Of a DNA stretch of 64,000 nucleotides, positions 12,001-15,000 are shown one piece after another (within the stretch, counting starts at the first letter, position 1; each line of letters starts with the position of its first letter). The stretch is from Escherichia coli. Its GTDB lineage: Bacteria > Pseudomonadota > Gammaproteobacteria > Enterobacterales > Enterobacteriaceae. The stretch lies in NCBI RefSeq assembly GCF_050320075.1, contig NZ_CP190019.1. One strand, written 5' to 3'. Position numbers: made by a program.

Positions 12001-15000
12001 TTTCAGCCAGCGGACCAACCGCGACCATCGATGCATCGGGGTGCGCGCTGCGCCGCGCGCCGGGGGCTTGAACCAGAAATTGATTCAGCAGGCCGAACCC
12101 ACGGTAAGTCCCGGCTGTTGCGGGATCGAACGGCAGCCAGGTACGGCGGGCTTCGTCATCCAGCCGAGCGCCATTCAGAGTCTCCTCGTAGGGTGATCGG
12201 TCCCACGACGCGTATCCCATCACAGTGCCAGTCGGCCCAACCGCGGAGCGTAACGCGGCAACGACCGTCTCCGCTCCTCCTTCGACCGGACCAATCGCTT
12301 TAAGTGAGGCATGCACCATCAAGAGGTCACCGGTTTGGACTCCGAGTTTTTGAAGCGCCTCCGTTATTGCCTTCCGCGTATGCATCGCGATATCTCCTCT
12401 AAACTGCAAAACACTATACGCTGATGAATCCCCTAATGATTTTGGTAAAAATCATTAAGTTAAGGTGGATACACATCTTGTCATATGATCAAATGGTTTC
12501 GCGAAAAATCAATAATCAGACAACAAGATGTGCGAACTCGATATTTTACACGACTCTCTTTACCAATTCTGCCCCGAATTACACTTAAAACGACTCAACA
12601 GCTTAACGTTGGCTTGCCACGCATTACTTGACTGTAAAACTCTCACTCTTACCGAACTTGGCCGTAACCTGCCAACCAAAGCGAGAACAAAACATAACAT
12701 CAAACGAATCGACCGATTGTTAGGTAATCGTCACCTCCACAAAGAGCGACTCGCTGTATACCGTTGGCATGCTAGCTTTATCTGTTCGGGCAATACGATG
12801 CCCATTGTACTTGTTGACTGGTCTGATATCCGTGAGCAAAAACGGCTTATGGTATTGCGAGCTTCAGTCGCACTACACGGTCGTTCTGTTACTCTTTATG
12901 AGAAAGCGTTCCCGCTTTCAGAGCAATGTTCAAAGAAAGCTCATGACCAATTTCTAGCCGACCTTGCGAGCATTCTACCGAGTAACACCACACCGCTCAT
13001 TGTCAGTGATGCTGGCTTTAAAGTGCCATGGTATAAATCCGTTGAGAAGCTGGGTTGGTACTGGTTAAGTCGAGTAAGAGGAAAAGTACAATATGCAGAC
13101 CTAGGAGCGGAAAACTGGAAACCTATCAGCAACTTACATGATATGTCATCTAGTCACTCAAAGACTTTAGGCTATAAGAGGCTGACTAAAAGCAATCCAA
13201 TCTCATGCCAAATTCGGCACTGTTGCAAAGTTAGCGATGAGGCAGCCTTTTGTCTTATTCAAAGGCCTTACATTTCAAAAACTCTGCTTACCAGGCGCAT
13301 TTCGCCCAGGGGATCACCATAATAAAATGCTGAGGCCTGGCCTTTGCGTAGTGCACGCATCACCTCAATACCTTTGATGGTGGCGTAAGCCGTCTTCATG
13401 GATTTAAATCCCAGCGTGGCGTTGATTATCCGTTTCAGTTTGCCATGATCGCATTCAATCACGTTGTTCCGGTACTTAATCTGTCGGTGTTCAACGTCAG
13501 ACGGGCACCGGCCTTCGCGTTTGAGCAGAGCAAGCGCGCGACCATAGGCGGGCGCTTTATCCGTGTTGATGAATCGTGGGATCTGCCACTTCTTCACGTT
13601 GTTGAGGATTTTACCCAGAAACCGGTATGCAGCTTTGCTGTTACGACGGGAGGAGAGATAAAAATCGACAGTGCGGCCCCGGCTGTCGACGGCCCGGTAC
13701 AGATACGCCCAGCGGCCATTGACCTTCACGTAGGTTTCATCCATGTGCCACGGGCAAAGATCGGAAGGGTTACGCCAGTACCAGCGCAGCCGTTTTTCCA
13801 TTTCAGGCGCATAACGCTGAACCCAGCGGTAAATCGTGGAGTGATCGACATTCACTCCGCGTTCAGCCAGCATCTCCTGCAGCTCACGGTAACTGATGCC
13901 GTATTTGCAGTACCAGCGTACGGCCCACAGAATGATGTCACGCTGAAAATGCCGGCCTTTGAATGGGTTCATGTGCAGCTCCATCAGCAAAAGGGGATGA
14001 TAAGTTTATCACCACCGACTATTTGCAACAGTGCCGGCGGAACTGCTTATCCACACCCTGACTGAGCGCGTAGCTATAACTGAAGGCCATCTTTTCCGGG
14101 TGGCTTTTGCGATATTTTTTCAGCTCAGTCAGGCTGCTGAATTCCAGGACGTCCCACTCTTCCCCGGTGTTTTTTTTCTTCCCGGCAACAAGAAGCGTGT
14201 ACGACGCGGTGTTAACGTGGATATTTCGGGTACTCATCCTGCTTTCTCCTCTCTCTGGTTTTCAGCCCCCATCATCTGTTGAGTTTCGGGAGCCGCGGTT
14301 TTGACGTTTTGCGGGGACCTGCTCTTTGTTCCCTCCGGTATTAACCATCACCTGTTTGAGAACCTTCGCCGCAAGGGGCATCACTGCCACGGCCGGAAAC
14401 GACTGTCCGGGGGCAGACCGCAAAAGTTTTTGCCTGCTTCTGGGCAAAAAGTTTTGCGGGATGTGCATTTCACCCCTGGACTGGCGGAGACGGTTGTGGC
14501 TGTCTATGCCCCCGGCGACAGGGGCTTAAACAGGTGAATGGCAGCGGACACAACAACGGGCAGGGACCCGCCGCAACGACGTGAAGCGCGGTTTGCGAAA
14601 CTGCGTTGCGCCTTACATCCCTGCGGCCTTTTGCTGGGATGCCTGGAGCGCAGGCCACGGCGCGACAGAGGCGGCGCGACCGGAACGGTCGCTGCAAGCC
14701 CGGGGTTTTCACGCATCGGACCGTAGCGACAGCCCGAAACCGCGCCAGCGGGTTCGGCGGAGACTGGCAGGTGCGCCAGCAGCTGCCTGTCGGAGTCGGG
14801 CCTGACGACCGGATGCCGCCAGGCAGCCGGGAGCCGAAGGTGCGCGTGCGACAGGAAGTCGCTTAACGTATTGTTTTACATTGATAAAACCAGCTATCCC
14901 ATTAGCTGTAGCCTACCGGGACAGGCGCTGCCGGCAACGGCGGGGTCTGAAGCTCCCGGGACAACGAGAGCCGGGCGTCAGCCCGGGTAAAGCCCCGTGA

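What the first reader, a model, noticed from the sequence alone, without database searches (positions are those of the whole stretch)
14418..14458. Long near-perfect hairpin in the leading region, candidate single-strand promoter or initiation signal
A 16-bp stem with one mismatch and an 8-nt loop sits in a GC-rich stretch with no convincing ORF. F-type leading regions are known to carry Frpo/ssi elements that fold in the transferred single strand and drive early expression of ssb/psiB-type genes. Those genes are absent here (deleted by IS26), so the element may be orphaned.
Basis: inference. Interest (0 to 1): 0.3.

Follow-up and report, generated by a model that had tools for sequence, protein, structure and literature searches.

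The report
Tip of a known Frpo promoter hairpin
The hairpin is real, but it is only the tip of a 321-base fold-back that is a near-identical copy of the F plasmid's Frpo/ssiD element, a well-studied promoter and priming signal that works on the single DNA strand entering a cell during conjugation, so the finding is correct and ordinary.

Summary
The arms are 14418-14434 and 14443-14459, giving 16 pairs, one G·G mismatch and an 8-nt loop. No comparable hairpin appeared in 30 shuffles of the window.

The hairpin is not a stand-alone element. It caps a 321-nt imperfect hairpin (14282-14602, about 120 bp) on the + strand. Window 14036-14708 is 96.6% identical to the F plasmid Frpo1 region plus the start of ygeA. 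Window 14268-14618 aligns end to end with the deposited F ssiD (= Frpo) sequence and with ColIb-P9 ssi1-3.

The fold holds across 19 divergent copies: 90.7% of cells are paired against 42-46% in slid controls, and 21 pairs change on both sides. It is 9-17 kcal/mol more stable on the transferred strand than on its complement. At least 5000 plasmid records carry the element.

The Frpo/ssi reading is therefore right, and the element is already known. Two corrections apply. IS26 (13216-14035) truncates ygeA, the gene this copy drives. The ssb/psiB block was lost separately, by recombination between repeated Frpo/group II intron units. A nearly identical plasmid keeps an intact leading region next to oriT, outside the window. 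The exact -35/-10 hexamers could not be settled here.

The parts
14418..14434 (+). Left (5') arm of the apical stem, CCGCAAAAGTTTTTGCC
   Evidence: I1; fold; helix 6 is 95.4% paired across 19 copies, with 5 pairs changed on both sides
14435..14442 (+). Apical loop TGCTTCTG. Its sequence varies between copies.
14443..14459 (+). Right (3') arm of the apical stem, GGCAAAAAGTTTTGCGG. This A/T-rich duplex is a candidate UP-like element upstream of the candidate -35 (inference).
   Evidence: Samuel et al. 2024 describe UP, -35 and -10 elements in Frpo hairpins
14282..14602 (+). Complete Frpo/ssiD-type hairpin: about 120 bp, imperfect, and the ortholog of F Frpo1 (class 1 ssDNA promoter, also called ssp1a)
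   Evidence: MFE about -102 to -110 kcal/mol, z = -8.7 for the 633-nt region; homology; covariation; strand asymmetry
14464..14472 (+). One-sided 9-nt bulge TGCATTTCA on the right arm, directly below the apical stem. Its position and the motif GT-N-Y-A-T-Y-T are conserved in F, ColIb-P9 and S. enterica copies. Its function is unresolved; an alternative reading makes it a pre-melted -10.
14473..14482 (+). CCCCTGGACT, paired with GTCCGGGGG (14405-14413). TGGACT (14477-14482) is the candidate -35 on the arm that mimics the non-template strand (inference).
   Evidence: CCTGGAC is conserved in nearly all copies
14500..14507 (+). Mismatched segment CTGTCTAT, opposite CATCACTG (14379-14386). This is the candidate -10 region (inference). 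The helical distance to TGGAC is conserved at 17-18 bp, and the 3 extra bases of Frpo2-type copies are bulged out.
   Evidence: hand alignment of type 1 and type 2 copies
14603..14845 (+). Conserved GC-rich extension upstream of the hairpin, with further small hairpins (for example 14782-14827). It is shared with other Frpo copies and with ColIb-P9 and S. enterica sequences. Its function is unknown, and the group II intron is inserted at its distal end.
   Evidence: (I3, I4)
14036..14237 (-). Truncated ygeA: the first 67 of 95 codons, 97% identical to the F protein. In F this is the first gene driven by Frpo1.
   Evidence: gene names from Couturier et al. 2023
13216..14035 (-). IS26 that cuts ygeA. 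Its transposase gene (13268-13972) points the same way as Frpo-driven transcription.
14262..14468 (-). Annotated 68-aa ORF inside the hairpin, judged spurious
14846..17188 (+). Group II intron (GTGCGAC...CCCGAC; reverse transcriptase/maturase 15440-17107), inserted 244 nt from the hairpin base. It is probably the substrate of the recombination that removed ssb-psiB-hok.

Best explanation
The hairpin at 14418-14459 is the apical stem-loop of a class 1 single-stranded-DNA promoter and priming signal. It is the ortholog of F plasmid Frpo1 (= ssiD).

Established for F and ColIb-P9, and inferred for this copy by 96-97% identity: when the + strand enters a recipient as the transferred single strand, bases 14282-14602 fold into a roughly 120-bp imperfect hairpin. 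The duplex stem reconstitutes -35 and -10 elements, with mismatches around the -10. SSB stimulates recognition by host sigma-70 RNA polymerase. The polymerase transcribes leftward, using the + strand as template, into the first leading gene. The RNA serves both as mRNA and as a primer for complementary-strand synthesis. Once the strand is copied to duplex, the hairpin and the promoter disappear.

The apex most likely nucleates and closes the long hairpin. It probably also supplies the A/T-rich UP-like duplex just upstream of the -35. This is inference, at roughly 50% confidence for that geometry.

In this window the copy is displaced and largely orphaned. Its operon is cut by IS26 after 67 codons of ygeA. 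In the closest complete plasmid it lies about 112 kb from oriT along the transferred strand. There it can still fire and prime, but it no longer expresses an intact leading gene.
For: Identity: 96.6% over 673 nt to the F Frpo1-ygeA region and 87% to Frpo2. There is a full-length alignment with F ssiD D90178 and ColIb-P9 ssi1-3.

Structure: the hairpin spans 321 nt with 120-122 pairs; for the surrounding 633 nt, z = -8.7.

Conservation of the fold in 19 distinct copies from E. coli, Shigella, Klebsiella, Salmonella, Serratia and an insect metagenome: 90.7% of cells are paired against 42-46% when partners are slid. 21 pairs change on both sides, against 5-9 slid and 13 shuffled. The covariation score is 0.138 against 0.03-0.05.

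Strand specificity: the + strand folds 17 kcal/mol better than its complement, with 8 G·T pairs, and the same asymmetry appears in 4 other homologs. The + strand is the strand deposited as ssiD. In the colinear plasmid p14406-FII it is also the strand that carries the F nic-region motif, pointing into the leading region.

Context: the element lies directly upstream of ygeA, as in F.

Function in the literature: in vitro promoter and primer activity (Masai & Arai 1997, as summarised in PMC7690428). Deleting Frpo1 abolishes early ygeA expression and lowers transfer (PMC9849209). Class 1 transcription start sites were mapped by 5' RACE (PMC12672017). In vivo priming is reported in bioRxiv 10.64898/2026.01.09.698686.

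A published Frpo2-acrIIA4 construct includes the apex and the upper stem only up to the equivalent of 14525, which places the promoter in the upper hairpin.

Prevalence: at least 5000 plasmid records, with up to 8 copies per record.
Against: No experiment exists on this copy. The -35/-10 hexamers could not be assigned with confidence. A strict sigma-70 scan finds nothing, a position-weight scan gives several weak candidates, and the papers' figures showing the boxes are not available as text. The best linear match, TTGAGA-17-CATCAC on the left arm, points the other way, and the choice between geometries rests on indirect arguments. The downstream gene is truncated and the copy is far from oriT, so its expression function here may be nil. 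Whether the window's own replicon matches p14406-FII outside the window is assumed from colinearity.
Confidence: 0.9

Rival explanations
1. The element is an inert relic. It is Frpo by descent, but this particular copy has no selected function. It is a leftover of an IncFII leading region stranded inside an IS26-rich resistance region, with a truncated target gene and a long distance to oriT.
For: ygeA is cut by IS26. The near-identical plasmid has an intact leading region with two other Frpo copies at oriT. The exact IS26-ygeA junction appears in only one of the listed plasmid hits (H1).
Against: The hairpin is fully intact. It is 98-99.7% identical to copies in native context, so any loss of function would be contextual, not structural. 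The orientation on the transferred strand is preserved. The priming function needs no downstream gene.
Confidence: 0.3
2. The hairpin is a duplex-DNA signal in its own right, either a rho-independent terminator or a palindromic protein-binding operator.
For: It is a 17-position palindrome with a short loop. A palindrome of this kind could bind a dimeric protein.
Against: No T-run follows the stem on either strand, and the terminator scan does not call it. It is nested at the exact centre of a 321-nt hairpin whose outer helices covary. The Serratia and insect-metagenome Frpo-like candidates (no experimental test cited here) replace it with unrelated apical stems, so what is conserved there is a closed tip rather than this exact palindrome.
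Confidence: 0.03
3. The hairpin lies inside a real small protein-coding gene (the 68-aa ORF 14262-14468 on the - strand, annotated as a hypothetical or 'single-stranded DNA-binding' protein).
For: PGAP calls this ORF in many plasmids.
Against: There is no Pfam match. The frame is interrupted in F Frpo1 by a 1-nt indel and in F Frpo2 by a stop codon, although both elements are functional. Variation follows base-pairing rather than codon position.
Confidence: 0.03
4. It is a different class of single-strand initiation signal: a PriA-dependent primosome assembly site or a DnaG/G4-type site, rather than an RNA-polymerase-dependent one.
For: F carries several ssi signals of different types, and hairpins are common to all of them.
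Against: The sequence is the ortholog of ssiD, the RNA-polymerase-dependent one. F ssiE has no homolog here; in F it maps between ygeB and the SLT gene, a region deleted from this window.
Confidence: 0.02

Closest known systems
F plasmid Frpo1 = ssiD (Masai & Arai 1997; Couturier et al. 2023; also called ssp1a)
   Same: 96.6% identical over 673 nt, including the start of ygeA. Same length, same hairpin, same strand, and same position immediately upstream of ygeA.
   Different: The apex differs at a few bases: the window has GTTTTT where the F record has -TCTTT, so the window stem is more regular than in F. The downstream operon is truncated by IS26, and a group II intron lies 244 nt upstream. 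In the closest complete plasmid this is a third, oriT-distal copy.
F plasmid Frpo2 (ssp1b), upstream of ssb-yfjA-yfjB-psiB-psiA
   Same: 87% identical, with the same fold.
   Different: It has a different apex type (TTTTTTACC/GGTAAAAAA, with compensating changes), a 3-nt bulge in the upper stem, and drives different genes. The window copy is not of this type.
ColIb-P9 / pESBL ssi1-ssi3 (IncI1 class 1 ssDNA promoters; Bates 1999, Nasim 2004, Wen 2025)
   Same: The upper hairpin is homologous: the A/T-rich apical palindrome, the one-sided bulge and the GTCCGGGGG/CCCCTGGAC helix.
   Different: The lower stem and flanks diverge, and overall column identity in the joint alignment is 69%.
Class 2 and class 3 ssDNA promoters (ssp2/'Frpo3' upstream of klcA/ardB; ssp3 upstream of the methylase)
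   Same: The same principle applies: a long T-strand hairpin upstream of leading genes. A class 2-like hairpin is present in this window at about 18534-18775.
   Different: There is no sequence similarity to the element under study (one search finds no second copy; literature).

Membership tests
Frpo/ssiD-type (class 1) single-stranded DNA promoter | Sequence homology to F ssiD/Frpo or ColIb-P9 ssi1-3 | tested here: met
   96.6% over 673 nt to the F Frpo1 region. Full-length alignment with D90178 and the ColIb-P9 ssi sequences.
Frpo/ssiD-type (class 1) single-stranded DNA promoter | A stable imperfect stem-loop of about 320-330 nt in the single strand | tested here: met
   14282-14602, 120-122 pairs, MFE about -102 kcal/mol with DNA parameters. 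z = -8.7 for the 633-nt region.
Frpo/ssiD-type (class 1) single-stranded DNA promoter | Structure maintained in evolution (compensatory changes) | tested here: met
   90.7% of cells paired against 42-46% slid; 21 pairs changed on both sides; 0 of 500 shuffles reach the observed covariation score. Caveat: the structure was derived from the window sequence, and the copies are related.
Frpo/ssiD-type (class 1) single-stranded DNA promoter | Lies on the transferred strand, oriented so that the T-strand is the template for the downstream leading gene | tested here: met
   ygeA' and the tra genes are on the - strand. The + strand equals the ssiD deposit strand. In colinear p14406-FII the + strand carries the F nic-region motif pointing into the leading region (the motif is recalled from established knowledge). 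The + strand fold is 17 kcal/mol more stable than the complement.
Frpo/ssiD-type (class 1) single-stranded DNA promoter | Immediately upstream of an early-expressed leading-region operon | tested here: inconclusive
   It is upstream of ygeA as in F, but ygeA is truncated at codon 67 by IS26 and ygeB is absent.
Frpo/ssiD-type (class 1) single-stranded DNA promoter | -35 and -10 hexamers reconstituted in the stem, with mismatches at or near the -10 | tested here: inconclusive
   A mismatched segment (14379-14386 / 14500-14507) and -35-like motifs (TGGACT at 14477-14482; TTGAGA at 14357-14362) exist. No assignment is unambiguous, and the published boxes could not be retrieved as text.
Frpo/ssiD-type (class 1) single-stranded DNA promoter | Sigma-70 RNA polymerase- and SSB-dependent RNA synthesis on ssDNA only; inactive as duplex | not testable with these tools
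   Known for F Frpo and ColIb-P9 ssi3 from the literature. No canonical duplex promoter is detected here.
Rho-independent terminator | GC-rich stem followed by a T-run on the transcribed strand | tested here: not met
   Not called by the terminator scan. The tails are GATGTGCA (+ strand) and TCTGCCCC (- strand).
Described RNA families (Rfam 15) | Match to a curated covariance model | tested here: not met
   Only group II intron models match, at 14890-15039 and 17112-17188. Nothing matches at 14238-14845.

The most novel reading that the evidence does not exclude
The stranded Frpo copy may act as a conjugation-triggered outward promoter into IS26. It fires leftward on the incoming single strand. 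Only 67 codons of ygeA separate it from the IS26 end (14035). The IS26 transposase gene (13268-13972) has the same orientation, and no terminator-like site is detected on that strand between them. If read-through occurs, IS26 transposase would be expressed in a burst in each new transconjugant, linking plasmid entry to IS26-mediated rearrangement. Nothing here tests this. IS elements often block read-through translation, and the junction is rare among plasmids.
Probability: 0.08. Interest if true: 0.5.

Novelty: already known. Interest (0 to 1): 0.1.

Why it matters
The identification has practical value rather than novelty. It shows that a conspicuous hairpin, which annotation pipelines cover with a spurious 68-aa ORF (sometimes labelled 'single-stranded DNA-binding protein'), is really the tip of a ssDNA promoter found in thousands of F-like and I-like resistance plasmids.

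The local context shows how repeated Frpo units and the group II introns that home next to them act as recombination substrates. Such recombination removes the SOS-inhibition and ssb genes from leading regions. IS26 can then strand a still-foldable ssDNA promoter far from oriT.

Tried and rejected
1. Rfam search of 13000-19000 at a permissive threshold found only group II intron domains and nothing at the hairpin.

2. A duplex sigma-70 promoter scan of 14000-14900 found no site, and the terminator scan did not call the hairpin.

3. The coding reading was rejected. ORF68 and ygeA' have no Pfam hits, and the ORF68 frame is broken in F Frpo1 and Frpo2.

4. A search for a second copy in the window (blastn with word size 9, and a 30-mer with 3 mismatches) found none.

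5. F ssiE has no homolog in the window. In F it maps to the oriT-proximal segment that is missing here.

6. I tried to recover the published -35/-10 boxes. Masai & Arai 1997 and Bikard 2010 are not held. The Couturier and Wen figures are images only. Other papers describe the element only in general terms.

7. I then weighed three promoter geometries.
- (A) Left arm as non-template, TTGAGA(14357)-17-CATCAC. This is the best linear match (9.9 bits in the D90178 version), and TTGAGA is invariant in all 19 copies. I disfavour it because the Frpo2-acrIIA4 construct of Samuel et al. lacks the partner strand of this -35, and because the class 2 hairpin carries its -10-like TACGAT on the right arm.
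- (B) Right arm as non-template, TGGACT(14477)-18-TGTCTA, with the A/T-rich apex as an UP-like element. I prefer this one, although its -10 is weak.
- (C) -10 in the conserved 9-nt bulge, with the -35 in the apex. The spacing is conserved, but the hexamers are poor and the geometry is awkward.
None of the three is proven.

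Full report
**1. The observation**

The inverted repeat is present as described. The arms are 14418-14434 (CCGCAAAAGTTTTTGCC) and 14443-14459 (GGCAAAAAGTTTTGCGG). That gives 16 Watson-Crick pairs, a central G·G mismatch and the 8-nt loop TGCTTCTG.

As single-stranded DNA the 58-nt segment folds at -19.2 kcal/mol on the + strand (z = -5.9) and -14.7 kcal/mol on the - strand. Stems of this quality occur at four places in the 64-kb window and at none in 30 dinucleotide-preserving shuffles. The stretch 14238-14845 is 63% G+C against 53% for the window, while the hairpin itself is A/T-rich.

**2. What it belongs to**

The repeat finder also reported nested inverted repeats centred on the same point: 14370-14381/14506-14517 and 14348-14365/14520-14537. 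Folding 14238-14870 as ssDNA gives one long imperfect hairpin, with z = -8.7 for the region. A ladder drawing shows 120 pairs between 14282 and 14602, with the reported stem-loop at its tip. The finding is therefore the apex of a 321-nt hairpin, not an isolated signal.

**3. Identity**

- Window 14036-14708 is 96.6% identical to F plasmid NC_002483 63562-64233. That interval is the region upstream of, and including the start of, the 95-aa gene that follows Frpo1.
- The window is 87% identical to the second F copy, Frpo2.
- The five reference Frpo/ssi sequences in supplementary file 4 of Samuel et al. 2024 (PMC11541004) include F ssiD (D90178), which is the Frpo of Masai & Arai 1997. It aligns with window 14268-14618 over its whole length, in the same orientation as the window + strand.
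- ColIb-P9 ssi1-3 share the upper hairpin.
- The element occurs in at least 5000 plasmid records of Escherichia, Klebsiella, Salmonella and Shigella, with up to 8 copies per record.
- Rfam has no model for it.

**4. The fold is conserved and strand-specific**

I aligned nineteen distinct copies. Sixteen came from seven plasmids and three from the Samuel supplement (Serratia and an insect metagenome). I scored the window's minimum-free-energy structure on this alignment.

| Measure | Observed | Partners slid 1-3 columns | Shuffled |
|---|---|---|---|
| Cells forming standard pairs | 90.7% | 42-46% | 87.3% |
| Pairs changed on both sides | 21 | 5-9 | 13 |
| Covariation score | 0.138 | 0.03-0.05 | 0.088 (0 of 500 shuffles reach the observed value) |

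The apical helix is 95% paired. One clean compensation stands out: an A·T pair in 9 copies against a G·C pair in 7, which separates the Frpo1-type apex from the Frpo2-type apex.

The + strand folds 17 kcal/mol better than its complement and uses 8 G·T pairs. Four other homologs show the same bias of 9-15 kcal/mol.

The + strand is the transferred strand. The tra genes and ygeA' lie on the - strand. In the colinear plasmid p14406-FII the F nic-region motif, which I recalled from established knowledge, lies on the + strand next to traM and points into the leading region. In F it lies on the strand that carries ssiD.

One caveat applies. The tested structure was derived from one of the aligned sequences and the copies are related, so the shuffle control overstates significance. 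The slid-partner control is the fairer one.

**5. How it works**

This section is established for F and ColIb-P9. It is inferred for this copy from near-identity.

- The single-stranded form folds so that the stem reconstitutes -35 and -10 boxes. Host RNA polymerase initiates on it in vitro, and the RNA can prime DNA synthesis (summaries of Masai & Arai 1997 in PMC9849209 and PMC7690428).
- Deleting Frpo1 abolishes early YgeA production in transconjugants and cuts transfer from about 92% to about 25% (PMC9849209).
- Class 1 start sites were mapped by 5' RACE, and induction lasts longer when conversion to duplex is delayed (PMC12672017).
- Transcripts from ssp1/Frpo prime complementary-strand synthesis in vivo (bioRxiv 10.64898/2026.01.09.698686).
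- Conversion to duplex removes the hairpin and switches the promoter off.

**6. Role of the apex, and the unresolved hexamers**

I could not retrieve the published box positions as text. Three geometries fit parts of the data.

- **Model A.** The best linear sigma-70 match is TTGAGA(14357-14362)-17-CATCAC on the left arm. It scores 9.9 bits in the D90178 version, where the -10 reads CATACT. TTGAGA is invariant in all 19 copies, while its pairing partner varies. This model would send the polymerase up the stem and around the loop.
- **Model B.** TGGACT(14477-14482)-18-TGTCTA(14501-14506) lies on the right arm and reads from the loop towards the base and out into ygeA. Its -10 is poor. However, it sits in the conserved mismatched segment opposite 14379-14386. 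The helical distance is kept at 17-18 bp because the three extra bases of Frpo2-type copies are bulged out. In this model the A/T-rich apical duplex lies at about -47 to -56 once the 9-nt bulge is looped out. That is where an UP element would sit, and Samuel et al. state that Frpo hairpins carry UP, -35 and -10 elements.
- **Model C.** This puts the -10 in the conserved one-sided bulge (14464-14472; motif GT-N-Y-A-T-Y-T in F, ColIb-P9 and S. enterica) and the -35 in the apex.

I prefer model B, at roughly 50%, for two reasons. First, the Frpo2-acrIIA4 construct of Samuel et al. ends at the equivalent of 14525. It therefore lacks the strand that would pair with TTGAGA, yet it protected the plasmid about 225-fold only from the leading T-strand position. 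Second, the unrelated class 2 hairpin in this window carries its -10-like TACGAT on the right arm, inside a 4x4 internal loop.

Under any model, the apex closes and nucleates the 321-nt hairpin. The Serratia and insect-metagenome Frpo-like candidates replace it with a different apical stem. That suggests a closed tip is required, while the exact palindrome is specific to the F, ColIb-P9 and S. enterica copies.

**7.

IS26 occupies 13216-14035, and F homology begins at 14036. The annotated 72-aa ORF (14019-14237) consists of the first 67 codons of the F gene (65 of 67 identical) plus five IS26-encoded codons. By its position downstream of Frpo1, this gene is ygeA (Couturier et al.). IS26 therefore removed the distal part of ygeA, ygeB and the oriT side.

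The ssb-psiB-hok block would lie to the right of the element, under another Frpo copy. Three related plasmids show how it was lost.
- In p1107-118K, group II introns sit next to two Frpo copies.
- In K. pneumoniae p675920-1, an intron sits next to a third copy, upstream of the hyp192-DUF1380-antirestriction cluster.
- The window is identical to the p1107 'copy 1 + intron' context from 14036 to 17199, apart from one base. It is identical to the Klebsiella 'copy 3 + intron + hyp192' context from 14730 to 17500.

The crossover therefore lies within 14730-17199. This means homologous recombination between repeated intron or extension sequences deleted everything between them. pMB7671_3 shows the analogous ygeA-Frpo-hyp192 arrangement without any intron. 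Couturier et al. anticipated this kind of Frpo-Frpo deletion.

The window is colinear with p14406-FII. That plasmid has a complete leading region (ygeB, ygeA, Frpo1, hok, psiB, ssb, Frpo2) at record positions 1-6000, next to oriT. The copy studied here sits about 112 kb further along the transferred strand.

**8. Verdict**

The element is an already known, very common class 1 ssDNA promoter, and the reported hairpin is its tip.

Two questions remain open. The exact promoter geometry, which is a literature look-up plus one RACE experiment. And whether this stranded copy still does anything, such as priming or, more speculatively, read-through into the co-oriented IS26 transposase gene, with no terminator-like site between them.

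Interest is low.

Noticed in passing
window 14846-17188 (+): Complete group II intron (GTGCGAC...CCCGAC) with an RT/maturase/HNH ORF at 15440-17107 and Rfam D1-D4 and D5-D6 hits. Its boundaries are fixed by an empty site in pMB7671_3. It sits in the conserved GC-rich extension 244 nt from the Frpo hairpin, in the sense of the transferred strand and antisense to the leading genes. Other plasmids carry copies at the paralogous site next to different Frpo copies, so the intron appears to home to the Frpo-associated repeat.
   Followed up: partly
window 14730-17199, compared with L007 and L009: The hok-psiA-psiB-yfjB-yfjA-ssb block is missing because of a crossover between repeated intron/extension units. 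The window matches one parental context up to 17199 and the other from 14730. pMB7671_3 (L010) has an independent, intron-free version of the same deletion.
   Followed up: yes
window about 18534-18775 (+), upstream of the antirestriction gene 18078-18503: A second long T-strand hairpin (the 417-nt intergenic region folds at -108.9 kcal/mol, z = -5.6). Its right arm carries CTTGCATCCCTGCCAGCCCGGCTACGATGG, and the TACG of the -10-like hexamer lies in a 4x4 internal loop. It matches the published class 2 ssDNA promoter (ssp2 / 'Frpo3') upstream of klcA/ardB.
   Followed up: partly
window 14262-14468 (-): RefSeq/PGAP annotates a 68-aa protein inside the Frpo hairpin, in some records named 'single-stranded DNA-binding protein'. 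The frame is broken in F Frpo1 and Frpo2 and there is no Pfam match, so this is probably a systematic mis-annotation across thousands of plasmids.
   Followed up: yes
window 14603-14845 (+): The GC-rich extension to the right of the hairpin contains further small hairpins (for example 14782-14827, and GCGCGACCGGAACGGTCGC around 14672-14690). It is conserved next to other Frpo copies and in ColIb-P9 and S. enterica sequences. It lies upstream of the promoter, and its function is unknown.
   Followed up: no
alignment A2 (window, L001, L003, L006-L012): Frpo copies are mosaics of two apex/upper-stem types (Frpo1-like and Frpo2-like) combined with different lower stems. This suggests gene conversion among the copies within and between plasmids. 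The left arm is markedly more conserved than the right arm.
   Followed up: partly
window 22945-22989, 26370-26409, 58593-58636: These are the only three other hairpins in the window with stems of at least 17 positions and at most 1 mismatch. The first lies just after the parM/stbB partition genes. None was characterised.
   Followed up: no
window 2383-38366: Seven IS26 copies (14 terminal repeats) bracket the resistance genes mph(A), aph(3')-Ia, aac(3)-IId, rmtB, blaTEM-1 and blaCTX-M-65. The window is a close relative of the hybrid IncFII/IncFIB plasmid p14406-FII, with small structural differences.
   Followed up: partly
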